Origin: an uncultured virus (IMG/VR IMGVR_UViG_3300029288_005821)
Lineage: Duplodnaviria; Heunggongvirae; Uroviricota; Caudoviricetes
DNA: 20,000 nucleotides
Reading direction: 5' to 3' (one strand)
IMG/VR virus record: IMGVR_UViG_3300029288_005821
Positions 9,132-20,000 of the stretch are shown here, piece after piece. A program made the translations under genes and the position numbers. The stretch's first letter is position 1. Every line of letters starts with the position of its first letter. The notes beneath the pieces are model-generated. The model was not told the DNA's origin and did not search any database. It saw only the letters and a list, made by a program, of their open reading frames with translations.

Positions 9132-9551
9132 CTATTCTAAGAGGCTACGAATCTCCATTAGAATTTTCCCGAGATGATTCTCGCCTCGACCATTACAGAC
9201 ACCCCAGTAAGTGTCATTCCAAACGTTGCCTTCGATCAGGATTGAATTCCCCGTATCAAGAAGTTTCTTTCGAAGTTCTGGAATACTAAATTTCACCACC
9301 AGAATTTGGTGCATATAATAGGTACGCCACTTTTTCCAATCAGGACGAATTCTGATGTCCTTACCAGCTCGTTTTGCTTTTCCTGGAGAATTGAGCTCCC
9401 GAATCATTTTTCTTACGTCTGGATCAGTAGTTTTCGCTGCTTGATATGCGTGTTCCGCAGACGGATATGTACCCCCTTCAAATTCTACTTCACAAAGATA
9501 AAAATTAGATAGAAAAGCGTATTGACCGCTAAAAATATCGATAGTTTCCAT
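9132..9551 (-). CDS. NADAR family protein (YbiA-like, DUF1768)
   Basis: Hallmarks FLSNFY, EHAYQAAK, PGKAKRAG, KF...LLDTG, E...DTYWG, GENHLGKILMEIR. Confidence 0.95.
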   Translation of the reverse strand: METIDIFSGQYAFLSNFYLCEVEFEGGTYPSAEHAYQAAKTTDPDVRKMIRELNSPGKAKRAGKDIRIRPDWKKWRTYYMHQILVVKFSIPELRKKLLDTGNSILIEGNVWNDTYWGVCNGRGENHLGKILMEIRSLLE

Positions 9552-9659: not shown

Positions 9660-10184
9660 TTATCTCCTTCTTCTCATAAAATTTGTGCGTCGAGTAGTTA
9701 GACGTAATGTCTCATCCATTGGAGTTTCCCCATCATCCTTATTTGGATCTTCAAGCAATCCGAGTTCTTCTTCTATCTCCAATGATCTCTCATGCGATGG
9801 ATGGAAAGGCTTCCCTGTCTTCATCTGCTCGCATTCAGCAATTTCATGGGCAGCACAACTAATAAAATATTCCTTTGAAACTTCAGAATCACCTTCATCA
9901 CAGCCGCATCTATTATCTATACTTTCATTCCAATGATGTGTACCTACCCAAATTTCACCCATCGGAATAAATTCATGGACATATGGGTGACCTCCGTGAC
10001 CAAAGATAATGCTCAAATTATTACGTACCCATGTTCCGTCTACGGCGAAAACAGAATATCCTAACATATCAAATATATATTTTTTCCAATCACCTTCAGG
10101 TTTAAACGAAGGATCTTTATAAGGCGTTCTTTCCTGTATTTCTGCTTCCATCAAAGGTAAGCTTATGGTTCGATTGTCTGGCAT
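9660..10184 (-). CDS. Hypothetical protein with HExxE...H motif (possible metal-dependent hydrolase)
   Basis: VDG..VR, GGHPYV.EFIP..EIW, AHEIAEC..M..G.....H; start uncertain. Confidence 0.7.
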   Translation of the reverse strand: MPDNRTISLPLMEAEIQERTPYKDPSFKPEGDWKKYIFDMLGYSVFAVDGTWVRNNLSIIFGHGGHPYVHEFIPMGEIWVGTHHWNESIDNRCGCDEGDSEVSKEYFISCAAHEIAECEQMKTGKPFHPSHERSLEIEEELGLLEDPNKDDGETPMDETLRLTTRRTNFMRRRR

Positions 10185-10294
10185 ATTTCCATATATCGAT
10201 AATAACACTATGAGAAAAATTAGTAGTTAAAACGGCGAAGCCGTAAAACGTATATTGTCTCTCGAACAGTTTCGTGTGTGTAGGAGAAGGACTT

Positions 10295-10855: not shown

Positions 10856-11668
10856 CTACTCACCCACAGCCCAAAGAGACCTATCCGTTTCAGATGGTTC
10901 TGGATTTATAGGAGAATTTTTTATTTGGGGAATTCGTTGTCCGTCTTCCGTGAGAAGCCATATATTCGATATATCAAGAAACATTTGCGGATTCGATTCC
11001 AGCAATAATTTCTGGGATAACATCTGGTCATAAAGCGGAATGTGACTCTTAGTTACGATGCAATATTCGAATGTTCGACGACCGTCTTCAATGCGGAAGA
11101 CGTTGTGTTGATATCGGCCTGTGACGAGATAAACGAAACCATCTTTTCCTACAACGTGAAATGACTTCTTTTTCTTGAATTCTATCTGCTGCGTCTCGTC
11201 GAGCAAGGAAAAAAGAATTTTTCGAGAACGTCTCTTTATCGCATCTTCTTTCCTCTTATCGTCTTTTCTCTTTTTCTCAATGAGTTCAAGATAAACTCGG
11301 GCGATTTCTTGATCGTGTTCTCTTCCCGCTAAAGCCAAACAAGTCTGTTCAATAAATCGAACTGGAGACTCGTTGCCAATATCAGCACCTGCTTGGCAAT
11401 TTTCAGCGTAAGAAAGCCCACCAAGAATGAGAACGCCATGGCGGTCGTTAACCTGACCGCCGGCAGAATCAAGTATGCCGTCGAAATTATCCCAACGGGT
11501 GACGGAACGCAGAACTAGAACTAATGTGTCGTTAGTTCTATCGCCTTCCGGAAGCAAAGCTAGACGTGCCAGAAGTTCATCAACCAAAAGTGTCAGAGGT
11601 TCATCGAGGTCACAATTGAGGAAAACTCGAGATGACCTAATAGCGCGAACGTTCCAAGTCGGCGCCAT
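10856..11668 (-). CDS. Hypothetical protein with Cys-containing C-terminal domain; candidate partner of the E1/GG pair
   Basis: C-terminal domain LL...Q..EF.....F.V.G..G..Y....YC......P..DQML.QKL.L; lies directly downstream of the GG protein. Confidence 0.8.
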   Translation of the reverse strand: MAPTWNVRAIRSSRVFLNCDLDEPLTLLVDELLARLALLPEGDRTNDTLVLVLRSVTRWDNFDGILDSAGGQVNDRHGVLILGGLSYAENCQAGADIGNESPVRFIEQTCLALAGREHDQEIARVYLELIEKKRKDDKRKEDAIKRRSRKILFSLLDETQQIEFKKKKSFHVVGKDGFVYLVTGRYQHNVFRIEDGRRTFEYCIVTKSHIPLYDQMLSQKLLLESNPQMFLDISNIWLLTEDGQRIPQIKNSPINPEPSETDRSLWAVGE

Positions 11669-11754
11669 CCAAGTATAAACATACCCCTCCTTACCGTCTA
11701 AATCGAGGAGAGGAAGTTGCCCCTGACCGAGATGATTGATTAGGAGATGAATTT

Positions 11755-12054
11755 TTAGCCCCCGGACATTTGAGGGGAGACGACGTAATCGGCTTCAGGA
11801 GTGAACTCAGTCACCATCTCGGGAGCGGTGAAGAGGTATTTCTCGGCGTTTCCGTCAAAAGTGTCTACTGGCTCCTTCTTTAGACCGAGAAACTTCACCT
11901 TAAAGACAAGAAAGCCCTTCGCGCGCAAAGAGTCAAAATGTTCCTTTGCCGCTTGAACTTCCAATTCGTTCTTCCGGTCCCAAGTATATTTAGTATCCCC
12001 TTCATGATTTAGATGAGAAATACTGCCGGTTGTAATAGGGTCAATCTTTTTCAT
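11755..12054 (-). CDS. Small protein with C-terminal Gly-Gly; candidate ubiquitin-like or sulfur-carrier protein
   Basis: Ends YVVSPQMSGG-stop, similar to the MoaD tail FFPPVTGG; ATGA overlap with the E1 gene. Confidence 0.75.
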   Translation of the reverse strand: MKKIDPITTGSISHLNHEGDTKYTWDRKNELEVQAAKEHFDSLRAKGFLVFKVKFLGLKKEPVDTFDGNAEKYLFTAPEMVTEFTPEADYVVSPQMSGG

Positions 12055-12785
12055 AACTTATTTCCGTTGCAAAGAGGACATTTCGGGTCCTTCTTTAATT
12101 CTACTGTCTTGAAAGACATATCTAGGGCGTAGAAAGTCAAAAGCTTTCCCACTAAATTATCCCCGAGCCCTAAGAGCAATTTGAGTGTCTCAGTGGCCTG
12201 GAGCATGCCAATAATACCGGGCACTACTCCGAGAACACCCGCTTCCATCGGAAGCGTCCTCAAATTACTGTTCGGATACAGACATTGGTAACAAAGAGAG
12301 TCCTTCGTAAATACTGAAACCTGTCCATCGAATTGACTTACGGCTCCATGAACCAACGGAATCCCTTTTTTCCGACAAGCAGCATTGAGTATATATCTGG
12401 TCTCAATATTGTCGGTGGCATCTATGACGACGTCATAGTCTTCTTCCGGAAATCGACCATTTAGTAATCGTGTGCAATGCCCGATTACATTTATATCATC
12501 ATTCAAACGGAGCATGGCATCTCTAGCCGACGCCACTTTATTGACGCCTGGAACGCTATGAATCACCTGCCTTTGCAGGTTTGATAAACTCACCCTTCCG
12601 TCATCAACCAAACTAACGAATCCAACTCCGGCCGCTGCCAGATACATAGCTATTGGACTTCCCAATCCTCCTACGCCGACGAGAAGGACCCGACTCTCCA
12701 ATAGCTTTATCTGTCCCTTTTCCCCGATTCCCCGAAGAAGAATGTGTCGTTTATATCGCTCGAGTTGTCCTTGACTTAATTCCAC
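12051..12785 (-). CDS. moeB: ThiF/MoeB/HesA family E1-like adenylyltransferase
   Basis: RYxRHI, GVGGLGS, D...VSLSNLQRQ, K, DATDN, CYQC and CPLC Zn ligands, EAGVLG. No rhodanese domain. The symbol denotes the family only. Confidence 0.93.
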   Translation of the reverse strand: MELSQGQLERYKRHILLRGIGEKGQIKLLESRVLLVGVGGLGSPIAMYLAAAGVGFVSLVDDGRVSLSNLQRQVIHSVPGVNKVASARDAMLRLNDDINVIGHCTRLLNGRFPEEDYDVVIDATDNIETRYILNAACRKKGIPLVHGAVSQFDGQVSVFTKDSLCYQCLYPNSNLRTLPMEAGVLGVVPGIIGMLQATETLKLLLGLGDNLVGKLLTFYALDMSFKTVELKKDPKCPLCNGNKL

Positions 12786-13659: not shown

Positions 13660-14270
13660 ATTCCGACTGTTCGAGAAAAGAGATAACTCATTTCGGAAAT
13701 GAATTCATTTCAGGGACCCGGAAAAGACGTATGTATTAGAGAATTTTGTCTCTGAAAAAGGTTTACTTGTTGCCGGGGAAGAATTGCTCACTGGGGATTT
13801 TTTCCGAGGAGATGCTTCTCATCAGGGATAATTGTTACTGGGAAAATTTTACCTACACACACCTACATGAACTAAACAGTTCAAATCGGGCTTCACGGCG
13901 CGTATATCGAATCGGTATTTCGAAATACCTAAAATCCCCTATTTTCCCAAGCATGTGTCTCCCCACCCACTAGGTATTATAAAGATACTTTACTCCCTAC
14001 CCCCTACCCCATATATCCTTATATACTAGTAATACCCCCTTATAGATAATTACCTACCCCTATCTTGGTAATAATCTTTACCCGGGACCGCAGGCGTCCC
14101 GGGACTGTCTTCTATCGTCAAAGGTCTTTCAAGGACCGTCTCGTTTCCAATTAATTCGTCGAGGGTTCATGTTTTCCTTTCCGGCGTCCGAGTTTGGCGC
14201 GAGAGGAGCCGGGGTTTTTGCTTTTGCGCTCCCTCAATCGGCGAGGGGCTGGTCTCAATTGCAGTTTGTT
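13660..14270. other. Large non-coding gap at the compositional and regulatory boundary
   Basis: No convincing ORF; five TACCC copies (13998, 14005, 14033, 14055, 14079) in AT-rich context. Confidence 0.55.
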
Positions 14271-14531
14271 CTACGCAGCGTGGGTTCTGATTTCCGCCGG
14301 GACAAACGCTGAACTGAAGATAGCACTGAATTCTTCGGCTTCAAAATCGAATCCGGAACTGCCGGGTACGAGAGCGTAGATTTTTCCGTTAGGACTGAAT
14401 TCGATAAGCCCGTCTATCATGAGTGACTTGAGACAGAATTCGGTTTGCTTGGGTCCGAATACTGCGCTTAGCTCCCACACCTCTGAAACTCCGCCCGCCC
14501 CAAGAATCATGTCCAGAATGATTTCTTTCAT
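14271..14531 (-). CDS. Small hypothetical protein, possibly winged helix (86 aa)
   Basis: Start set by the class A module; LKSLMIDGLIEF...KIYAL pattern. Confidence 0.7.
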   Translation of the reverse strand: MKEIILDMILGAGGVSEVWELSAVFGPKQTEFCLKSLMIDGLIEFSPNGKIYALVPGSSGFDFEAEEFSAIFSSAFVPAEIRTHAA

Positions 14532-14554
14532 TGTCGTCAATCTCCACCCCCAGA

Positions 14555-14578
14555 TACTTTTCAGGGGTGACGATTTAC
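14555..14578 (-). promoter_or_regulatory. Class A promoter module
   Basis: GTAAAT-N14-AGTA-N9-GGAG; hairpin 14562-14589. Confidence 0.7.
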
Positions 14579-14596
14579 TGTCACCCCTGCTTGAAA

Positions 14597-14863
14597 TCAA
14601 TGTCCGTAGTTGAACCCGTAGCGATACATCTTGCCGGTCGGGCTCGGTCCGAACTCGATATCTACTTTCCCACAACACCCGGCCTGCTCTTGCTGCTCAT
14701 ATAGGGCCATCTCCTCGAGATTCCCCACCTGACATGTGCGGTGATTATCTGCACAGTCGAAGTCCTCACCCTTATCCTCTTCAGCCTGGTACCAAGCTGT
14801 GAGATATCCCCTGATGAAACTTCCGTCAACCTGGCCGTATCTCTCTTCAAGAGTAGGTTCCAT
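14597..14863 (-). CDS. Hypothetical phage protein (88 aa)
   Basis: CADNHR...GCCG...YGFNYGH; ATG lies 9 nt after CGTA. Confidence 0.8.
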   Translation of the reverse strand: MEPTLEERYGQVDGSFIRGYLTAWYQAEEDKGEDFDCADNHRTCQVGNLEEMALYEQQEQAGCCGKVDIEFGPSPTGKMYRYGFNYGH

Positions 14864-14872
14864 AGGTCCAAA

Positions 14873-14896
14873 TACGAGCCAGGGCGGCCAATTTTC
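14873..14896 (-). promoter_or_regulatory. Class A promoter module
   Basis: GAAAAT-N14-CGTA-N9-ATG; hairpin 14877-14914. Confidence 0.7.
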
Positions 14897-14980
14897 GCTT
14901 TGACCGCCCTGGCTTTTTCTGTTTGGAGGTGGCGATGGAGGTGACGTATCGATAAGAACTGCGAGAAAGCCAAAAGAAGG

Positions 14981-15130
14981 TCAGGAAGAGGCCATCTCGC
15001 GGTAAACTGTGCGGTTTCGCCTTGACCGGGATAGAACTAGCTTGCGCCGTTCACCTTCCCTGGTACGAATGCGGTACCGGCTTGGGTCATTTTTGGCAAC
15101 CAGTGCCAATGTGTGGTTACGGGGTTTCAT
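14981..15130 (-). CDS. Small basic protein (49 aa), weakly ArfA-like
   Basis: MKPRNHTLALVAKNDPSRYRIRTREGERRK...; start uncertain. Confidence 0.5.
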   Translation of the reverse strand: MKPRNHTLALVAKNDPSRYRIRTREGERRKLVLSRSRRNRTVYREMASS

Positions 15131-15236
15131 GACGGGTTGTAGGTAGGAGCAGGAGATAAAGACCTCAGGGAGTTTCTTTACCCATGGCTTGAACCTTAAA
15201 GTCAAGCTAGAAATCCTTATCTCTTGCTAAGTCTGG

Positions 15237-15434
15237 TTAGGCGTCCCTCGTCTGGATCTCGGCGTCCTTATCTCGAAGGGACTGGATCTTACGGTCGAAA
15301 GCCGCTTCTGTTTTCGGGGTACATCGCTTCCATTCTCCCATTGCGTACCCACGTTTCGGGTTTGGGATTCGGTATGCGATTTCTTGAGGTTTCCACATCG
15401 CTCGGGAAAGTCTCGATTCAAGTGATTGGTCCAT
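15237..15434 (-). CDS. Hypothetical protein (65 aa)
   Basis: Start set by the class A module SD. Confidence 0.75.
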   Translation of the reverse strand: MDQSLESRLSRAMWKPQEIAYRIPNPKRGYAMGEWKRCTPKTEAAFDRKIQSLRDKDAEIQTRDA

Positions 15435-15453
15435 CGTCATCTCCATCCTTGAA

Positions 15454-15477
15454 TACGGAAAGAGGGGTGAGATTTAC
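15454..15477 (-). promoter_or_regulatory. Class A promoter module
   Basis: GTAAAT-N14-CGTA-N9-GGAG; the TAA is the upstream gene's stop. Confidence 0.8.
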
Positions 15478-15728
15478 TCGTCGTGATTGGTTGTGGCGGG
15501 AGTCGTTCGAAATTGACTCTGGCGACGGCCCTTTGGTTTCCAACGTTCGCGAAGTTCCTGCATTGTAATCCGGCCTTCAAAGAGATCTGTCACGTCATGA
15601 ATCGGACCGGATGCGATGACGATTTGTTGACAGAGAACGCCATCAACTACAACTTCGGTGACCAGACTAGCTCGTTGTCCATCACCGCTGGGTTGAATGT
15701 GGGTGTTTCGAATCTTCGGTTCAATCAT
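15474..15728 (-). CDS. Hypothetical protein (84 aa)
   Basis: 8-nt overlap with the upstream gene; GGAG SD. Confidence 0.65.
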   Translation of the reverse strand: MIEPKIRNTHIQPSGDGQRASLVTEVVVDGVLCQQIVIASGPIHDVTDLFEGRITMQELRERWKPKGRRQSQFRTTPATTNHDE

Positions 15729-15966
15729 TGACTTGGACTCCCTGGTCGGCTAGAAGCTTGCGGATGATGGGCTCTGCCTTGGCCTTAGCCGCTGTTGATC
15801 GCTCCCCTGGCGTCTTACCACCAACTTCCACGGTTGCCCAACGGGAGGGGTCATTCTCATCCTCAGGACGGAAGACGTAGAAAGTGGTGATGGTGGAGCT
15901 CCCATATAGGCGCTTGGCTCGAACTCCACCGTTATATCGATTCTTTGAAGAAGTTGTGAGTTTCAT
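15721..15966 (-). CDS. Hypothetical protein (81 aa)
   Basis: Start set by the class A module SD. Confidence 0.75.
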   Translation of the reverse strand: MKLTTSSKNRYNGGVRAKRLYGSSTITTFYVFRPEDENDPSRWATVEVGGKTPGERSTAAKAKAEPIIRKLLADQGVQVND

Positions 15967-15988
15967 TGCCGTCATCTCCAACTTCGGA

Positions 15989-16012
15989 TACGATGGTAAA
16001 GATAGGATTTAC
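15989..16012 (-). promoter_or_regulatory. Class A promoter module
   Basis: GTAAAT-N14-CGTA-N9-GGAG; the TAA is the upstream gene's stop. Confidence 0.8.
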
Positions 16013-16338
16013 GAATTCTCGGGATGACTTGACTCTCGCTTGGTTACTGGCTCTTCGTCTTCCATCCCCCCATACTCTTCATCGTCCTTCCATTCGATGA
16101 AGTTTCCGTCCTCGTCAATGACGCCCTCTTCCATGAGGAACGACTTGAATGTCGAATTGTGTGTGGCGTACTCCGAATCATCAATGGCCGTACTGAGATT
16201 GGCGAACCAATAGGCCTTTGCATTGGGCCAACTTGCAGTGCGACGAGCCAAGGATTCGATTTCGCTCTTGCATTCTTGAAGTTTGATGTAAAGCTTGTAA
16301 AGCTCTTCACGTTCCATGTCATCTAGTTTGCTTGCCAT
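16009..16338 (-). CDS. Hypothetical acidic protein (109 aa)
   Basis: Start MASKLDD, behind the class A module. Confidence 0.8.
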   Translation of the reverse strand: MASKLDDMEREELYKLYIKLQECKSEIESLARRTASWPNAKAYWFANLSTAIDDSEYATHNSTFKSFLMEEGVIDEDGNFIEWKDDEEYGGMEDEEPVTKRESSHPENS

Positions 16339-16359
16339 GTCGTCATCTCCAACCTTGAA

Positions 16360-16383
16360 TACGGGTAAGGCCCGGGAATTTCC
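16360..16383 (-). promoter_or_regulatory. Class A promoter module
   Basis: GGAAAT-N14-CGTA-N9-GGAG; AGGCCCGG/CCGGGCCT hairpin 16368-16389. Confidence 0.8.
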
Positions 16384-16394
16384 GGGCCTCCGTT

Positions 16395-16754
16395 TTAGGC
16401 GACTGCAAGAACTGGCGAAATCGAAATGAGATTCTTCTCTGCCCATTCTGACGAGAAGTAGATGGCGTACACACGTTGTCCGAGTTCAGCCGATACGCAG
16501 TTGCTTTCCCACTCGAGTGTCAGAGCACCTTGGAGAAGGCCGAGAATTTTGCGAACGAGACCGTCATTGATTTCATCGACGTCATAGACATAGCCACGTT
16601 CTTTGCTAGCGGCGTCACGGTTCACTTTGCTAGTTCGATGAATACCACTACAGCCACACCAGCAACCCTTATCTTTCCTGCCACTATAGACAGAAATGAT
16701 GTCTTCGAATTTGATCATATTCACGTTCCCAACAATTTTGGTGGTCGTCGTCAT
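16395..16754 (-). CDS. Hypothetical phage protein with YSG...GCxCGCxG motif (119 aa)
   Basis: Start set by the class A module. Confidence 0.8.
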   Translation of the reverse strand: MTTTTKIVGNVNMIKFEDIISVYSGRKDKGCWCGCSGIHRTSKVNRDAASKERGYVYDVDEINDGLVRKILGLLQGALTLEWESNCVSAELGQRVYAIYFSSEWAEKNLISISPVLAVA

Positions 16755-16776
16755 TGTCGTCATCTCCATTTTCAAA

Positions 16777-16800
16777 TACGGATGAGGCCCGGTTATTTAC
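16777..16800 (-). promoter_or_regulatory. Class A promoter module
   Basis: GTAAAT-N14-CGTA-N9-GGAG; same 8-bp hairpin stem, 16785-16809. Confidence 0.8.
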
Positions 16801-16817
16801 GCCGGGCCTTCCGATTC

Positions 16818-17084
16818 TTACCAGCGAACGTCAGCTGGCAGTTGATTGTAGCAGAGCTCACAACTGTGTTCGTAAATAGTGGCTCCGTTGATATCGCCGT
16901 CAAGGCGGAGGCCGACTGCGCAGGATTTGTTGATCGCGTAGTTGGCTAGGGTTTCCATGATGCTCCTAGCATCTTTCCTCACACCAACAAACTCAATCGC
17001 TGCTTTCCTAGTGGGACGGTGCCACTTGGCCCAAAATTCACGAAGCTCTTCTTGACTCATCGTATCAAAGTTTGGGGTTTCCAT
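16818..17084 (-). CDS. Hypothetical phage protein (88 aa)
   Basis: LANYA.NK..A...RL.G.I..A..YE..C...Y..LP..VRW; start set by the module. Confidence 0.8.
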   Translation of the reverse strand: METPNFDTMSQEELREFWAKWHRPTRKAAIEFVGVRKDARSIMETLANYAINKSCAVGLRLDGDINGATIYEHSCELCYNQLPADVRW

Positions 17085-17106
17085 TGTCGTCATCTCCAAC
17101 CAATGA

Positions 17107-17130
17107 TACGAGAGAAGAAAGGGGATTTAC
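17107..17130 (-). promoter_or_regulatory. Class A promoter module
   Basis: GTAAAT-N14-CGTA-N9-GGAG; the TAA is the upstream gene's stop. Confidence 0.8.
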
Positions 17131-17387
17131 GGGCAAAGACTGCGCAAAATTCCGAGTCCTTGATTGGCCTCGGCTTCGGTCCCGTCCATCAACTCGAGAT
17201 AGACGATGCCATTGTGGGTGTCAGGTACGACAACCCATTGGAAAGGTTGAGATGCCCGTTCAACATCAGATGCAAGTCGATAGACTTCGGCCGCTAAAGA
17301 ACGGGACGGCACCCCATCATTGAGTGTTATCTGAATTTGGGGTTGAGGGTTTCCGTATTGACTCTTGATTATTGAAGCTTCTCTCAT
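17127..17387 (-). CDS. Hypothetical protein (86 aa)
   Basis: Start set by the class A module. Confidence 0.75.
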   Translation of the reverse strand: MREASIIKSQYGNPQPQIQITLNDGVPSRSLAAEVYRLASDVERASQPFQWVVVPDTHNGIVYLELMDGTEAEANQGLGILRSLCP

Positions 17388-17406
17388 CACTATCTCCGAT
17401 CATTGG

Positions 17407-17430
17407 TATGATAGAAACCCTGAGATTTTC
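17407..17430 (-). promoter_or_regulatory. Class A promoter module
   Basis: GAAAAT-N14-CATA-N9-GGAG. Confidence 0.65.
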
Positions 17431-17436
17431 GAGAAA

Positions 17437-17673
17437 TCACTTCCACTGATTCTGTTCGTCAAATTCCTTTGAAGGAATTGTCATTTCCTCTGAACCGTCC
17501 CAGATTCCCATTGCGGTACGAATGACTGTTTCGTCCCCCTCGATGTCGTACAGAACTTCTTCATCCAACCAACTCGCAGAGTGCTTTTCTCCAAGATGAA
17601 GAACTTCAACCGTGTTGATTTCCGGATTTGAATTTGGGTTCTCAGTTACACGAATTGTCGTCATTTCGGCCAT
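17437..17673 (-). CDS. Hypothetical acidic protein (78 aa)
   Basis: Start set by the class A module. Confidence 0.75.
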   Translation of the reverse strand: MAEMTTIRVTENPNSNPEINTVEVLHLGEKHSASWLDEEVLYDIEGDETVIRTAMGIWDGSEEMTIPSKEFDEQNQWK

Positions 17674-17695
17674 CGTCGTCATCTCCAACTATGAA

Positions 17696-17719
17696 TACGA
17701 CAGAAGGGATCCGACTTCC
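17696..17719 (-). promoter_or_regulatory. Class A promoter module
   Basis: GGAAGT-N14-CGTA-N9-GGAG; 13-bp hairpin with GGAA loop, 17703-17732. Confidence 0.75.
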
Positions 17720-17737
17720 GTCAAATCCCTTCCGAAG

Positions 17738-17974
17738 TTAGTTGGTGAGATGCTTACCTGATGGTTTGGTGCCGTCTACCCAGTGCTGATAGCTCCCTTC
17801 AATGACCGTCAATGTATCCCGGTTATCCCAAACTTGACGTTTCGCTGCTATCTCCTGTTCTCGTTTCAAGTGCTGTCTAGCTCGATGTAGCACCCAAACT
17901 GCGATGGCAAGAATGATGAAAGCTAAGACCGTTGCAGTACTAGCTGCAATTGTCAGATAGTGAATGAGTTTCAC
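17738..17974 (-). CDS. Small single-TM membrane protein
   Basis: Hydrophobic TVLAFIILAIAVWVL; GTGA overlap with the upstream gene. Confidence 0.7.
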   Translation of the reverse strand: MKLIHYLTIAASTATVLAFIILAIAVWVLHRARQHLKREQEIAAKRQVWDNRDTLTVIEGSYQHWVDGTKPSGKHLTN

Positions 17975-18192
17975 AGCTCAAGATCTTCCATGACCCGTGC
18001 ACGGCCTTCATGACGAGCATGGCGCTTCTGACTGCGACGAGTCCTAGCCCGATCTTCGCCATGAGCATAACCGCGAAAGTCTCCGCCCTTTTTCCGATAT
18101 CGCCCGGCTGAACTCTTCAATCCGAGTCTCTGAATGTCAGCAACATCGGGGTATTCGAGTTCAGGAGTTCGTTGCATTCCGTAGGGTCTCAT
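17971..18192 (-). CDS. Small basic protein (73 aa)
   Basis: Start MRPYG behind GGAGG and a class A module; Arg-rich C-terminus. Confidence 0.75.
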   Translation of the reverse strand: MRPYGMQRTPELEYPDVADIQRLGLKSSAGRYRKKGGDFRGYAHGEDRARTRRSQKRHARHEGRARVMEDLEL

Positions 18193-18212
18193 ATATCGCC
18201 TCCAACACTTGT

Positions 18213-18236
18213 TATATTTGGAATGACTTGATTTAC
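18213..18236 (-). promoter_or_regulatory. Class A promoter module
   Basis: GTAAAT-N14-TATA-N9-GGAG. Confidence 0.7.
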
Positions 18237-18244
18237 AAACGAAT

Positions 18245-18388
18245 GTCGTGACAGTGAACTCCCTAGGGGAGCCGCTAGAAGCCTCGACTCGAGACTGCGG
18301 GAATTGAACCCGCAACTAAGGTAACTAATCTTAGTTACTTCCGGAGTTTTTCGAGTAGTTAATTCGATCGACCCATCACTGTCACGAC
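18245..18388 (-). ncRNA. Circularly permuted tRNA-like RNA (YrlA / bacterial Y RNA-like), 144 nt
   Basis: 13-bp terminal stem; T arm GCGGG-TTCAATT-CCCGC; loop-closed 7-bp acceptor-like stem; D-like arm with GG in the loop. Confidence 0.7.
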
Positions 18389-18391
18389 TAG

Positions 18392-18474
18392 TGGCCCCTC
18401 CCGGACTTGAACCGGGACTGTGTTACCACAAAGGGATTTTAAATCCCCGGCGTCTGCCATTCCGCCAAGGGGCC
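18392..18474 (-). tRNA. tRNA-Leu(UAA)
   Basis: Acceptor GGCCCCT/AGGGGCC plus discriminator A; D arm GCG-GAATGGCAGA-CGC; anticodon loop TT-TAA-AA; long variable arm; T arm CCCGG-TTCAAGT-CCGGG. CCA is not encoded. Confidence 0.95.
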
Positions 18475-18487
18475 TTGTGTTTTCTTG

Positions 18488-18511
18488 TACGTCAAAAACA
18501 GCCGAATTTAC
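18488..18511 (-). promoter_or_regulatory. Class A promoter module upstream of the tRNA
   Basis: GTAAAT-N14-CGTA, 13 nt before the tRNA 5' end, with no SD part. Confidence 0.8.
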
Positions 18512-18738
18512 TTTACAACTTCCGGCTGAAAAACGACAACTGGTTCTAGGTTATCGCCTTTCCCGATGCGTTTTCCGACTTCGACCCGTTCCTTCATCAA
18601 ATCAAGGGCTCCTTGAATGCGATCAATTGAACCCTTAACCGTGTCGAAATTTTCGCAGGGTACATCAGTGGCATTAACAACGATGACTGCGAAGTGAGCC
18701 TTGAGTGAAGACGCGATATCGAGAGGTGTGATCTTCAT
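18508..18738 (-). CDS. Hypothetical protein (76 aa)
   Basis: ATG lies 9 nt after CGTA. Confidence 0.7.
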   Translation of the reverse strand: MKITPLDIASSLKAHFAVIVVNATDVPCENFDTVKGSIDRIQGALDLMKERVEVGKRIGKGDNLEPVVVFQPEVVK

Positions 18739-18747
18739 GTTTCCCTA

Positions 18748-18771
18748 TACGTCTCAAACTGTCAGATTTAC
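18748..18771 (-). promoter_or_regulatory. Class A promoter module
   Basis: GTAAAT-N14-CGTA-N9-ATG; overlaps the 3' end of the upstream gene. Confidence 0.75.
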
Positions 18772-18960
18772 AATGACTGGAACTGTCACTGTGATCGAAA
18801 TCCGGACATTGGCAACGCCAACTTCATCTTCCATCAATTCAAGATTGCCCGATCTCTCACAGTAGTCAATGAAAACGTCCTTGGCTTTTTCAAAGTCTCC
18901 TGCTTTGACGAGATACTTTGTATCGATATTTCGCCATTGAATCAAGAAGAGCTTGTCCAT
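18754..18960 (-). CDS. Hypothetical protein (68 aa)
   Basis: Class A module with SD upstream. Confidence 0.75.
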   Translation of the reverse strand: MDKLFLIQWRNIDTKYLVKAGDFEKAKDVFIDYCERSGNLELMEDEVGVANVRISITVTVPVIVNLTV

Positions 18961-18981
18961 ATCGTCATCTCCAACCGAAAA

Positions 18982-19005
18982 TATGAGTAAAGGGCCCGAA
19001 TTTAC
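18982..19005 (-). promoter_or_regulatory. Class A promoter module
   Basis: GTAAAT-N14-CATA-N9-GGAG; hairpin 18990-19013. Confidence 0.8.
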
Positions 19006-19019
19006 AGGCCCCTCTCAGA

Positions 19020-19226
19020 TCACACCCTTTCGTTCAATGTAGCAATCGAGTCAACCAGGCAGAGTCGGCTTGAAAGATCCGTAACCCGAGCTTCCCATTT
19101 CGCAATTTCAGCTAGTCGCCAACACGGACAAGCTCGAAGTTCTTGGCGTGCTACACTTAGCTTCATCCTGAGTTGATCGCCAGCTCTAACTGCACGTCGA
19201 ACGGTTCGTCTCGGGGTGGTTTTCAT
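19020..19226 (-). CDS. Small basic hypothetical protein (68 aa)
   Basis: Start set by the class A module. Confidence 0.7.
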   Translation of the reverse strand: MKTTPRRTVRRAVRAGDQLRMKLSVARQELRACPCWRLAEIAKWEARVTDLSSRLCLVDSIATLNERV

Positions 19227-19248
19227 TGTCATCATCTCCAACTCAGGA

Positions 19249-19272
19249 TACGAGCGGATAGAGATGATTTAC
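19249..19272 (-). promoter_or_regulatory. Class A promoter module
   Basis: GTAAAT-N14-CGTA-N9-GGAG; the TAA is the upstream gene's stop. Confidence 0.8.
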
Positions 19273-19511
19273 GAAAGCAGTGGATGTTCTGGGTTCGTCA
19301 TTGACGCACGGCCGTCACGAACTCGAACATTCTTGAACCCCTTCTTTACGAGAAATCGCTGATAGCGCATATCCTCGTCATCCGGGTCTTCATTTGGCCG
19401 TCGCTTCATGAAACCGAGTTCAGAGTGCCCGATCTCATCGTCAGACATCACGAGAGTATAGCTAGCACTAGAACCGAGAATAGTCTTTGACTCACCAGAT
19501 TCTGTCGTCAT
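19269..19511 (-). CDS. Hypothetical protein (80 aa)
   Basis: Start set by the class A module. Confidence 0.75.
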   Translation of the reverse strand: MTTESGESKTILGSSASYTLVMSDDEIGHSELGFMKRRPNEDPDDEDMRYQRFLVKKGFKNVRVRDGRASMTNPEHPLLS

Positions 19512-19523
19512 CGTCATCTCCAA

Positions 19524-19709
19524 TTAGTGATATGATGGAGGTGGCGAGATTTCCGAAGGCTCGGAATTCTCTTGATCTTTGAGGTAGAGCTTAGCTGCAG
19601 CTATCTCAAGTGAATTATAGCTAGAGACATCTTGCTCATAACTCAGAAGTTGAGCGATACGCCGTATTCTGATGTTGAATTCGTCTAGCTCGTCCATTGG
19701 TTCCCTCAC
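19524..19709 (-). CDS. Hypothetical protein (57-61 aa)
   Basis: Start is either GTG 19709 (9 nt after CATA) or ATG 19697 behind GAGGG. Confidence 0.65.
   Translation of the reverse strand: MREPMDELDEFNIRIRRIAQLLSYEQDVSSYNSLEIAAAKLYLKDQENSEPSEISPPPSYH
19531..19554 (-). promoter_or_regulatory. Class A promoter module
   Basis: GGAAAT-N14-CATA-N9-GGAG; lies inside the 3' end of the upstream gene. Confidence 0.7.
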
Positions 19710-19718
19710 ATCAGTTAA

Positions 19719-19742
19719 TATGAGGACAGAACCATCATTTAC
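19719..19742 (-). promoter_or_regulatory. Class A promoter module
   Basis: GTAAAT-N14-CATA-N9-GTG; the TAA is the ACP stop. Confidence 0.7.
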
Positions 19743-19978
19743 GAAAGACGTTTGACTATGTAGTCAACTATCTCTTGAACAGTCTTGAGTGGTTCAGCGT
19801 CCTCATCGGGAATGTCAATCTCGAACACCTCTTCCAAAGAGAGCAGTAATTCCACGTAACTAAGTGAATCGATATTGAAATCCCTTAAAACAGACTCAAG
19901 TTGAATCTCGTCATTCGGGATGTCCAGTTGTTCGTGAATAACATGCTTGACTTTGGTTTCGATCTCTTGCTGGTTCAT
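19739..19978 (-). CDS. acpP: Acyl carrier protein
   Basis: KVKHVIHEQL...DSLSYVELLLSLEEVFEIDIPDEDAE...TVQEIVDYI; intact DSL phosphopantetheine site; TGTACCGT 6 nt upstream of MNQQ. Confidence 0.93.
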   Translation of the reverse strand: MNQQEIETKVKHVIHEQLDIPNDEIQLESVLRDFNIDSLSYVELLLSLEEVFEIDIPDEDAEPLKTVQEIVDYIVKRLS

Positions 19979-20000
19979 CCAGTCACGGTACACTCAGCCG

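What the first reader, a model, noticed from the sequence alone, without database searches (positions are those of the whole stretch)
10856..12785. Candidate phage-encoded ubiquitin-like conjugation trio: E1, Gly-Gly protein and Cys-containing partner
Seen: a ThiF/MoeB E1 with its own promoter motif overlaps (ATGA) a 99-aa protein ending PQMSGG. A 270-aa protein with a Cys in its C-terminal domain (EYCIV...PLYDQMLSQKL) follows. No thiamine, molybdopterin, cysteine-desulfurase or tRNA-thiolation genes are in the window. Known: E1s adenylate C-terminal GG carriers, and bacterial Bil and CBASS Cap2 systems conjugate such proteins in anti-phage defence. The GG protein does not resemble ThiS/MoaD outside its tail. 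Inference: a phage-side protein-tagging system or a decoy against host ubiquitin-like defence, with the 270-aa protein as a non-canonical E2/E3.
Basis: partly seen in the sequence, partly recalled or inferred. Interest (0 to 1): 0.85.

Follow-up and report, generated by a model that had tools for sequence, protein, structure and literature searches.

The report
Phage ubiquitin-like tag, partner and E1
A giant phage carries three adjacent genes that look like a small ubiquitin-style protein-tagging kit: an activating enzyme, a tag ending in Gly-Gly, and a partner with one cysteine that never changes. Related phages usually carry only the tag and the partner, so this complete set could be tested directly at the bench.

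Summary
The genes exist as described, on the minus strand of a large-phage contig that was mis-binned into a high-GC MAG.

- **E1:** it is derived from MoeB. Unlike its nearest bacterial relatives, it has lost both the crossover-loop cysteine and the rhodanese domain.
- **Tag:** the 99-aa protein has a beta-grasp-like model. Its Gly-Gly end is kept in all full-length homologs.
- **Partner:** the "270-aa" protein is probably 298 aa, starting at a conserved ATT codon.
- **Linkage:** across phages the conserved core is the tag plus partner pair, found in 30 of 39 loci. The E1 sits beside it only in this window's subclade, and most complete phages with the pair have no ThiF gene.

Best reading (about 0.5): a phage ubiquitin-like conjugation module in which a Cys-less E1 adenylates the tag and the partner's cysteine accepts it. 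No chemistry has been shown.

This scan has noted the pair before on other DNA, as lacking an activating enzyme. The linked E1 is what this window adds. I found no published description. The promoter claim is not supported, and complex prediction never ran.

The parts
12051..12785 (-). E1-like adenylyltransferase, 244 aa, MoeB-derived. It keeps the GxGxxG nucleotide loop and both CxxC zinc motifs. It has no crossover-loop Cys and no rhodanese domain.
   Evidence: Pfam ThiF 7e-65. NCBIfam MoeB 1.4e-91 and UbaA 6.6e-81, both below their equivalog cut-offs. E. coli MoeB 1jw9_B 2e-51, aligned end to end. The crossover column is Cys in 111 of 121 homologs and Pro in this clade.
11755..12054 (-). 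Tag protein of 99 aa with a predicted beta-grasp-like fold, ending PQMSGG. Its start overlaps the E1 stop (ATGA).
   Evidence: ORF and overlap. 19 homologs, GG kept in all full-length ones. AF2 model with pLDDT 72.5 and strand-strand-helix-strand...strand order. Fold hits are nearly all ubiquitin-like or beta-grasp, but weak.
10856..11752 (-). Partner protein, probably 298 aa from an ATT start.
   Evidence: Conserved in-frame N-terminal extension. ATT at the homologous position in WIN, L082, L084, L088 and L085, and ATG in L002. 24 homologs. No hit in Pfam, PHROGs, PADLOC or NCBIfam.
11750..11752 (-). Probable non-canonical ATT start codon of the partner gene, 2 nt after the tag's stop codon. 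This spacing suggests translational coupling.
11330..11752 (-). N-terminal domain of the partner, specific to the large-phage subfamily. E107 and D119 are invariant and C110 nearly so (270-aa numbering). Its fold is unassigned.
   Evidence: Alignments A2 and A6. Only about 28 of the 150 best representatives match it over its full length.
10934..11221 (-). Conserved C-terminal Cys domain (residues about 150-245 of the 270-aa numbering): helix, four-strand meander, two helices. Q160, F170, N189, C203, P211 and D214 are invariant.
   Evidence: Model with pLDDT 81. VIA-align hits to Ubc9, RWD, UEV and FANCL at Z no higher than 4.5. 5,358 cluster representatives at E<=1e-3. Conservation tables.
11060..11062 (-). 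Codon of the invariant cysteine (C203, or C231 in the 298-aa protein), at the end of strand 4 of the meander in the model.

Best explanation
This is a phage-encoded ubiquitin-like conjugation module.
1. The MoeB-derived E1 binds the Gly-Gly tail of the 99-aa beta-grasp tag and adenylates it with ATP. This is inferred from family membership.
2. The E1 clade has lost the crossover-loop cysteine and the rhodanese domain. It therefore cannot hold the tag as a thioester or make a thiocarboxylate itself.
3. The acyl-adenylate is instead taken directly by the invariant cysteine of the partner's C-terminal domain. That domain would work like an E2, using its invariant Asn, Pro and Asp. This step is inferred.
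4. The partner's variable N-terminal region then selects the protein to be tagged. This step is also inferred.
5. Most phages carry only the tag and partner. They would borrow a host MoeB/ThiF-type enzyme, which the MoaD-like PPxAGG tails of many family members would suit.

Shown here: the genes, their conservation, their linkage and the losses in the E1. Not shown: any adenylation, thioester or conjugate.
For: **Phage origin**
- C1-C3 are 41% GC in a MAG whose overall G+C is 63.5%.
- They encode terminase, DNA polymerase, UvsX, clamp loaders and ribonucleotide reductase.
- None of 300 other genomes of the MAG's phylum has the Cys domain.

**E1**
- ThiF 7e-65 and E. coli MoeB 2e-51.
- The nearest non-phage relatives are 50-55% identical bacterial MoeB-rhodanese fusions.
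- The crossover column is Cys in 111 of 121 sequences. It is Pro, Arg or deleted in the 10 short forms, at least 9 of which are tied to contigs carrying the module.
- The phage clade has support 1.0.

**Tag**
- GG is kept.
- The model is beta-grasp-like.
- Fold lists are dominated by Ubl, SUMO, MoaD and SAMP.
- Family tails resemble the bacterial MoaD tail FIPPVAGG.

**Partner**
- Cys is invariant in 166 of 166 non-gap positions, together with N, P and D.
- Its topology matches UBC/RWD, with best hits Ubc9 at Z 4.5 (rmsd 3.1 over 83 residues) and RWD at Z 4.1-4.2.

**Linkage**
- 30 of 39 viral loci found through the Cys domain alone have a tag gene directly upstream on the same strand, mostly -14 to +4 nt away.
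- The E1 is directly upstream in 8 of 16 metagenome loci of this subfamily.
- The E1 lies within 1-6 kb of the pair or of a Cys-domain paralog in three IMG/VR phage records, two of about 200-230 kb and one of 436 kb.
- The E1 is the only neighbour that recurs across diverged loci.
- Several paralogous partners can share one tag (L023, L027).

**Precedent**
- The Bub E1 BubCD lacks a catalytic Cys yet conjugates (PMC11601596; abstract and sections 7 and 9 read).
Against: - No biochemical evidence exists.
- The E2-like fold signal is weak: Z is no higher than 4.5, where the tool warns that Z under 8 may be a common arrangement, and Foldseek against the PDB found nothing.
- There is no HPN motif, and no Pfam UBC-clan hit even at E 10.
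- hhalign against one prokaryotic E2 gave probability 0.9%.
- The tag shows no global sequence homology to ThiS/MoaD.
- Most phages with the pair, including complete genomes of 41-88 kb, have no ThiF gene: it is found in 6 of 34 records, and in 5 of the 16 that are at least 90% complete. The pair may therefore work without any E1.
- No JAB or other deconjugating enzyme was found nearby.
- A Cys-less MoeB-like E1 is also what a sulfur-carrier pathway of the E. coli type uses (recalled knowledge).
Confidence: 0.5

Rival explanations
1. Sulfur-carrier system. The E1 adenylates the tag, a host persulfide converts it to a thiocarboxylate, and the Cys partner uses that sulfur to thiolate a nucleic acid or metabolite, as in MoeB-MoaD, ThiF-ThiS or TtuC-TtuB.
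For: - The E1 is closest to MoeB.
- Many family tails match MoaD's PPVAGG.
- The pairs often sit in DNA replication and recombination modules.
- E. coli MoeB itself needs no catalytic Cys (recalled).
Against: - Relative to its nearest bacterial kin, the phage E1 clade has lost exactly the parts that carry sulfur: the rhodanese domain and the crossover Cys.
- No desulfurase, rhodanese, PP-loop or radical-SAM gene appeared among the scanned neighbours.
- The partners have highly variable, partly low-complexity N-termini and occur as several paralogs per tag. This is unlike a metabolic enzyme.
Confidence: 0.13
2. Decoy or inhibitor. The MoaD-like tag and its partner bind and block a host E1-type enzyme (MoeB/ThiF, or the E1 of Bil or type II CBASS defence) without tagging anything.
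For: - Most phages with the pair have no E1.
- The tails mimic MoaD.
- The window E1 also matches the E1 part of PADLOC Cap2 E1-E2 models, best at 6.6e-16.
Against: - A decoy would not need its own adjacent, translationally coupled E1.
- A decoy would not need an invariant Cys/Asn/Pro/Asp set in a second protein.
- It would not need several paralogous partners.
Confidence: 0.12
3. The Cys domain is a cysteine peptidase or isopeptidase that processes the tag or strips host ubiquitin-like conjugates.
For: - The Cys is invariant, with a nearby Asn and Asp.
- Two loci with the same sequence have a tag ending GGSR, which would need trimming.
Against: - There is no invariant His: H188 is present in 110 of 169 and H171 in 103 of 169.
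- Nearly all tags already end at GG, so no processing is needed.
- No peptidase fold appears among the hits.
Confidence: 0.07

Closest known systems
E. coli MoeB-MoaD (molybdopterin synthase adenylyltransferase and its sulfur carrier; PDB 1jw9)
   Same: - The E1 aligns with MoeB end to end at 2e-51, with both CxxC zinc motifs kept.
- The tag ends in GG after a hydrophobic strand, and many family members end PPxAGG like MoaD.
- The E1 and tag genes are adjacent.
   Different: - The tag is not a Pfam ThiS/MoaD member, and only its last 13 columns align in hhalign.
- There are no MoaE or Moco genes.
- The partner is an unnamed Cys-domain protein.
- The genes are carried by phages.
Bacterial ubiquitination-like defence operons: Bil (BilABCD), type II CBASS Cap2/Cap3, and Bub (PMC11601596, PMC10557695)
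   Same: - The logic is the same: an E1, a GG-ended beta-grasp tag and a small partner with a catalytic-type residue.
- The Bub E1 also lacks the crossover Cys (PMC11601596, section 7).
- A Bub complex chain (9eav_D) appears among the weak fold hits at Z 3.1.
   Different: - This module is on the phage side, not the host side.
- No JAB or other peptidase gene was found.
- Only the E1 matches PADLOC models.
- The partner matches no E2 family.
- The E1 is usually absent from the module.
E2-independent modifier and sulfur-carrier systems: Urm1-Uba4, archaeal SAMP-UbaA, Thermus TtuB-TtuC
   Same: - The E1 is a MoeB-type non-canonical E1, with NCBIfam UbaA at 6.6e-81.
- The tag is small and ends in GG.
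- SAMP1 and MoaD structures are among the tag model's fold hits.
   Different: - In those systems the E1 keeps a catalytic Cys and/or a rhodanese domain (recalled; PMC7527816 seen as abstract only). Here both are lost.
- Those systems have no dedicated, always-adjacent Cys partner.
Lambda and T1 tail-assembly protein I (TAPI), with TAPK carrying JAB and NlpC/P60 domains (Iyer et al. 2006, PMC1779556; passages read)
   Same: It is a phage-encoded ubiquitin-like beta-grasp domain with a conserved C-terminal Gly, encoded next to a cysteine-enzyme gene.
   Different: - TAPI sits in tail modules, is fused to a C-terminal domain and is paired with peptidases.
- The pair here lies in early or replication regions, ends at a free GG, and its partner is not JAB or NlpC/P60.

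Membership tests
ThiF/MoeB/E1 superfamily (PF00899) | Match to the family profile above its curated cut-off, with the nucleotide-binding Gly-rich loop | tested here: met
   218.9 bits against a cut-off of 28.1, covering 1-237 of 238 positions. GVGGLG is read in the translation.
ThiF/MoeB/E1 superfamily (PF00899) | Two CxxC zinc motifs of the MoeB/ThiF type | tested here: met
   CYQC and CPLC align with the MoeB and ThiF motifs.
Canonical thioester-forming E1 (UbaA, Uba4, Uba5, Cap2, BilD) | Catalytic cysteine in or beside the crossover loop | tested here: not met
   Pro sits at the position of the MoeB/ThiF loop Cys. That column is Cys in 111 of 121 homologs and Pro in the 7 members of this clade. 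The loop is shortened and Cys-free in all linked phage E1s checked.
MoeB equivalogs (NCBIfam NF006444, TIGR02355) | Score above the curated equivalog cut-off | tested here: not met
   307 bits against a cut-off of 449, and 202 against 376.6.
ThiS/MoaD family (PF02597) | Profile match over the whole domain | tested here: not met
   No Pfam hit for the window protein. No ThiS hit for any of 20 family members at E 10. hhalign aligned only the last 13 columns, at probability 39%.
Ubiquitin-like beta-grasp modifiers and carriers (fold level) | Beta-grasp fold with an exposed C-terminal Gly-Gly | tested here: inconclusive
   The model has pLDDT 72.5 and strand-strand-helix-strand...strand order. Foldseek top hits are UBX, ISG15 and SUMO at E about 0.1. 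The VIA list is nearly all beta-grasp, at Z no higher than 4.5. The GG end is conserved.
UBC/E2 superfold (UQ_con, Prok-E2, RWD, UEV) | Helix, four-strand antiparallel meander and two helices, with structural similarity to solved members | tested here: inconclusive
   The model's topology fits. VIA hits are Ubc9 at Z 4.5, RWD at 4.1-4.2, and FANCL, UEV and several E2s at 2.8-3.6. Foldseek against the PDB found nothing.
UBC/E2 superfold (UQ_con, Prok-E2, RWD, UEV) | Catalytic Cys after strand 4, preceded by an HPN-type Asn | tested here: inconclusive
   The invariant Cys lies at the end of strand 4 and an invariant Asn lies 14 residues before it. There is no HPN motif, and the Asn sits at the start of strand 3.
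UBC/E2 superfold (UQ_con, Prok-E2, RWD, UEV) | Sequence-profile match to a UBC-clan family | tested here: not met
   None of 30 members matched at E 10. hhalign against one Prok-E2_B sequence gave probability 0.9%. A proper profile library (HHpred) was not available.
UBC/E2 superfold (UQ_con, Prok-E2, RWD, UEV) | Forms a thioester with the tag | not testable with these tools
   This needs biochemistry. Complex prediction was never accepted by the tool.
Bil / CBASS type II / Bub operons | Operon with E1, E2, Ubl and a JAB or other deconjugating peptidase, located in host defence islands | tested here: not met
   No JAB among the 14 neighbouring ORFs. Only the E1 matches PADLOC models. The context is a phage genome.

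The most novel reading that the evidence does not exclude
Tailed phages carry their own minimal ubiquitin-like tagging system, built from two protein families that no library names.
- The tag is activated either by a borrowed host MoeB/ThiF or, in large phages, by a captured MoeB stripped of its cysteine and rhodanese domain.
- The acyl-adenylate passes directly to the cysteine of a mini-E2.
- The mini-E2's fast-evolving N-terminal regions aim the tag at host proteins, perhaps defence or replication proteins.

This would be a viral counterpart of the bacterial Bil, CBASS and Bub systems, and a two-step E1-adenylate-to-E2 route without an E1 thioester.
Probability: 0.3. Interest if true: 0.9.

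Novelty: new variant of a known kind. Interest (0 to 1): 0.8.

Why it matters
- Ubiquitin-like conjugation in bacteria is so far known as a host weapon against phages. A widespread phage-side version would add a new layer to that conflict and to the history of ubiquitin signalling.
- The tag plus partner pair is very common in uncultured phages, with over 5,000 cluster representatives of the Cys domain. It has no name in Pfam, PHROGs, NCBIfam or PADLOC.
- The open question about the pair has been what activates the tag. This window and its relatives provide a dedicated, adjacent E1, which gives a complete three-gene set to co-express and assay.
- The specific loss of the E1 cysteine and rhodanese domain makes a sharp, testable prediction about the chemistry.

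Tried and rejected
**Complex prediction**
No complex evidence exists either way.

**Family and homology searches that found nothing**
- Pfam, PHROGs, PADLOC and NCBIfam gave no family for the tag or the partner.
- PDB profile searches returned only coiled-coil noise.
- Foldseek against the PDB found nothing for the partner.
- To build an E2 profile for hhalign, I searched 401 genomes for Prok-E2_B and found only 1. The single-sequence comparison was empty.
- The ESM Atlas returned only hypothetical clusters. The nearest named one for the tag is a ThiS cluster at 0.77, which is a lead only.

**Cultured phages**
- blastn and tblastn against 50,697 GenBank phages gave no match.
- BFVD gave two unnamed viral proteins (E 1.4e-4 and 9.7e-4) and an Atu_ph07 protein (E 0.07).
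- The Atu_ph07 record has no sequence match to the Cys domain, the tag or ThiF, so I dropped that lead.

**Other scans**
- The genome search on metagenome loci failed because the records are not held.

**Expression**
- No RNA holder is listed. Two runs labelled RNA-Seq are probably DNA, and laying them gave short adapter-ended contigs only.

**Literature**
- Five full-text searches found no description of a phage tag, E2-like partner and E1 module.

**Ideas considered and rejected**
- MoaE-like, ThiG-like or TtuA-like partner: no family hit.
- Clan CE-type His-Asn-Cys peptidase: the His is not conserved.
Full report
**What is there**

All three genes lie on the minus strand, inside a long run of genes pointing the same way.
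- **E1:** 12785..12051, 244 aa, GTG start. It is a full-length ThiF-family protein (PF00899, 7e-65, 1-237 of 238 profile positions).
- **Tag:** the E1's stop overlaps the start of the 99-aa gene 12054..11755 as ATGA. That protein ends PQMSGG.
- **Promoter:** a sigma-70 consensus scan found no site in the 68 bases upstream of the E1. The whole 3-kb region holds 7 sites against 5.1 +/- 2.1 in shuffles.

**Where it comes from**

- The window is the end of contig C2 of a 5.03-Mb, 520-contig assembly whose overall G+C is 63.5%. Its three largest contigs (103, 76 and 69 kb) are 41% GC.
- Of their 53 ORFs of at least 300 aa, many match phage families. These include large terminase, DNA polymerase, UvsX, clamp loaders, DnaB-like helicase, ribonucleotide reductase, NAD ligase and a sigma factor.
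- None of 300 other genomes of the assembly's phylum has the partner's conserved domain.
- This is a large phage binned with an unrelated bacterium.
- Almost identical DNA is held in landfill, wastewater, bioreactor and groundwater metagenomes from about ten studies.

**The E1**

- It aligns end to end with E. coli MoeB (2e-51) and ThiF (7e-46), and both CxxC zinc motifs are kept.
- NCBIfam ranks MoeB and the archaeal SAMP-activating UbaA first, but below their equivalog cut-offs.
- Among its homologs, six are 75-89% identical and equally short. The next are bacterial MoeB-rhodanese fusions at 50-55% identity.
- In an alignment of 121 sequences, the crossover-loop column is Cys in 111. This is the position of the loop Cys in MoeB and ThiF; the residue numbers C187 and C184 are recalled.
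  - It is Pro in the 7 members of the window's clade.
  - It is Arg in two other short forms. One of these shares its contig length (41,193) with a partner homolog.
  - It is deleted in the E1 of locus L001.
- More diverged linked E1s (L091, L084) also have a shortened, Cys-free loop.
- The phage clade is monophyletic, with support 1.0, or 0.79 when L001 is included.
- So this E1 lineage has lost both parts that carry sulfur or a thioester. Adenylation is all it can be expected to do on its own.

**The tag**

- It has 19 homologs. All 18 full-length ones and the window protein end in Gly-Gly.
- In a wider set taken from phage loci, 32 of 33 end in GG and one ends GGSR. G19, A36, F40, P94, G98 and G99 are invariant.
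- The AlphaFold model (pLDDT 72.5) has the strand-strand-helix-strand...strand order of a beta-grasp, with a long low-confidence insertion.
- Foldseek's best hits are UBX, ubiquitin-like, ISG15 and SUMO domains, but only at E about 0.1.
- The VIA-align list is almost entirely beta-grasp proteins, including MoaD, SAMP1 and SUMO, at Z no higher than 4.5.
- No member matches Pfam ThiS. Profile-profile comparison with 23 bacterial ThiS/MoaD sequences aligns only the last strand and tail, at probability 39%.
- Many family tails (LVPPVAGG, LIPPMAGG) are nearly the same as the bacterial MoaD tail FIPPVAGG.

**The partner**

- It has 24 homologs of similar length, several on contigs of 228-458 kb.
- The gene model needs correction.
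  - The frame is open upstream, and the 28 extra residues align with the N-termini of homologs, with two invariant Trp.
  - The codon aligned with their Met is ATT here and in L082, L084, L088 and L085. In L082 it is the first sense codon after a stop. It is ATG in L002.
  - The protein is therefore probably 298 aa, starting two bases after the tag's stop codon.
- The model of the 270-aa form (pLDDT 81) has three parts: an N-terminal alpha/beta domain, a long helix, and a C-terminal domain. The C-terminal domain is a helix, a four-strand meander and two helices.
- A profile search of 1.84 billion representatives found 5,358 proteins at E<=1e-3, but only 42 at E<=1e-30. Most match only the C-terminal domain.
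P211 and D214 show the same counts, and N189 is present in 164.
- In 30 short members, Q, F, N, C, P and D are invariant. Their N-terminal regions are unrelated and often Thr/Ser/Trp-rich.
- The domain has no name in Pfam, PHROGs, PADLOC or NCBIfam, even at E 10.
- Foldseek against the PDB found nothing.
- VIA-align over 48,161 chains gave only weak matches, but the list is rich in one superfold:
  - Ubc9 (Z 4.5, rmsd 3.1 over 83 residues);
  - three RWD domains (Z 3.0-4.2);
  - FANCL, UEV domains, about ten E2s and a Bub complex chain.
- In the model the invariant Cys ends strand 4, which is about where E2 enzymes carry theirs.
- The order Asn, Cys, Asp matches the E2 catalytic set. This comparison rests on recalled knowledge of UBC enzymes, and the spacing differs.
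- I rate E2-likeness as suggestive, not shown.

**Linkage**

- Scanning IMG/VR with the C-terminal domain alone returned 39 loci.
  - In 30 of them a tag-family gene lies directly upstream on the same strand, mostly -14 to +4 nt away. Some of these loci are near-duplicates.
  - Two loci are cut by a contig end.
  - Seven have none. These are mostly extra paralogs in phages over 400 kb.
- One tag can be followed by two partners (L023), and one locus has three partners around one tag (L027).
- ThiF is rare in these records. It is found in 6 of 34, and in 5 of the 16 that are at least 90% complete. Complete phages of 41-88 kb have the pair but no ThiF.
- Where an E1 exists, it tends to be close:
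  - adjacent in the window;
  - 2.8 kb away in L001;
  - about 1 kb from a paralog in L010;
  - about 6 kb away in the record of L014.
- In 16 metagenome loci of the window's tag subfamily, the E1 is directly upstream in 8, which fall into five non-redundant groups.
- Clustering all neighbours showed the E1 as the only family that recurs across diverged loci. The others (RNA ligase, Metallophos, YAcAr) are confined to close kin.
- In smaller phages the pair sits among replication and recombination genes.

**Reading**

- The conserved core is a tag plus Cys-partner pair. This window's subclade adds a dedicated activating enzyme.
- The simplest mechanism that fits all parts has three steps:
  1. 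The E1 adenylates the GG tail.
  2. The partner's cysteine takes the acyl group directly, because the E1 has no cysteine to hold it.
  3. The variable N-terminal regions choose targets.
- The Bub pathway is a precedent for a real conjugation system whose E1 lacks the cysteine (PMC11601596; abstract and sections 7 and 9 read).
- A paper on Methanoperedens elements predicts that a mobile-element ThiF pairs with host ThiS (PMC13444090; passages read). This shows that cross-use between element and host has been proposed before.
- Phages without an E1 would then borrow host MoeB/ThiF, which their MoaD-like tails would suit. This is inference.
- The rivals are a sulfur carrier, a decoy and a peptidase. 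They are weighed in their own sections. None explains the loss of the sulfur-handling parts, the invariant catalytic-type set and the multiple variable partners together.

**Novelty**

- Five full-text searches found no description of such a phage module. Iyer et al. 2006 describe only the lambda TAPI/JAB case in phages (PMC1779556; passages read).
- Supplements were not consulted.
- Within this scan the pair has been reported repeatedly on other DNA, always as lacking an activating enzyme.
- One of those reports shares 122 of 180 words with locus L027's partner, which my profile places in the same family. So it is the same family.
- What this window adds:
  - the linked, Cys-less, rhodanese-less E1;
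  - the ATT start;
  - the finding that the E1 is a subclade feature.

**Limits**

- There is no biochemical evidence and no usable expression evidence.
- Complex prediction never ran.
- The N-terminal domain's fold is unassigned.

Noticed in passing
window 11750-11752 (-); L082, L084, L085, L088: The partner gene appears to start at ATT. This is conserved in five diverged homologs and replaced by ATG in another. The codon sits 2-3 nt after the tag's stop codon in the three loci where the genes abut. Non-canonical starts of this kind are sensitive to initiation factor 3 in E. coli (recalled), which hints at regulated or coupled translation.
   Followed up: yes
G000 contigs C1, C2, C3: Three 41%-GC contigs (103, 76 and 69 kb) with phage hallmark genes sit in an assembly whose overall G+C is 63.5%. 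A large phage has been binned with an unrelated bacterium, and its host is unknown.
   Followed up: partly
window 9132-9551 (-): A NADAR-domain protein (Pfam 5.5e-25, phrog_1017, PADLOC PDC-M42C 2.9e-11) lies about 1.3 kb downstream in the same gene run. NADAR proteins act on ADP-ribose adducts (recalled), so this is a second possible protein- or nucleic-acid-modification function nearby.
   Followed up: no
window 9660-10208 (-): A 182-aa protein with no family hit carries a HEIAE stretch and several His/Cys. It could be a metal-dependent enzyme.
   Followed up: no
L018 4255-4533 and L020 4255-4533: One tag variant ends GGSR instead of GG. It would need trimming, but no peptidase was seen nearby.
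   Followed up: no
L095, L096, L097: In three distant metagenome loci the gene order is reversed, with the Cys-domain protein first and the tag second. The partners there are long (451 and 585 aa) and have no Pfam domain.
   Followed up: partly
L001 4793-5734; L003, L085, L088, L089, L091, L092: An RNA ligase family protein (PF09414, 1.1e-15) recurs within a few kb of the module in 7 related loci, but not in the window.
   Followed up: partly
model md359cdffcdb4 against BFVD: Two unnamed viral proteins (A0A1P8DIP4 and A0A1P8DIR1) and a protein of the jumbo Agrobacterium phage Atu_ph07 resemble the partner model. The Atu_ph07 genome shows no sequence match to the module.
   Followed up: partly
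window 14001-20000: G+C rises to 0.47-0.51 in the last 6 kb, against 0.34-0.45 before it. ORFs there are short and overlapping.
   Followed up: no
L010 6332-6916 (-): A short, divergent ThiF-family protein (194 aa, 2.3e-22) without the CxxC motifs lies about 1 kb from a Cys-domain paralog in a 436-kb phage. It is a second, different E1-like type associated with the family.
   Followed up: partly
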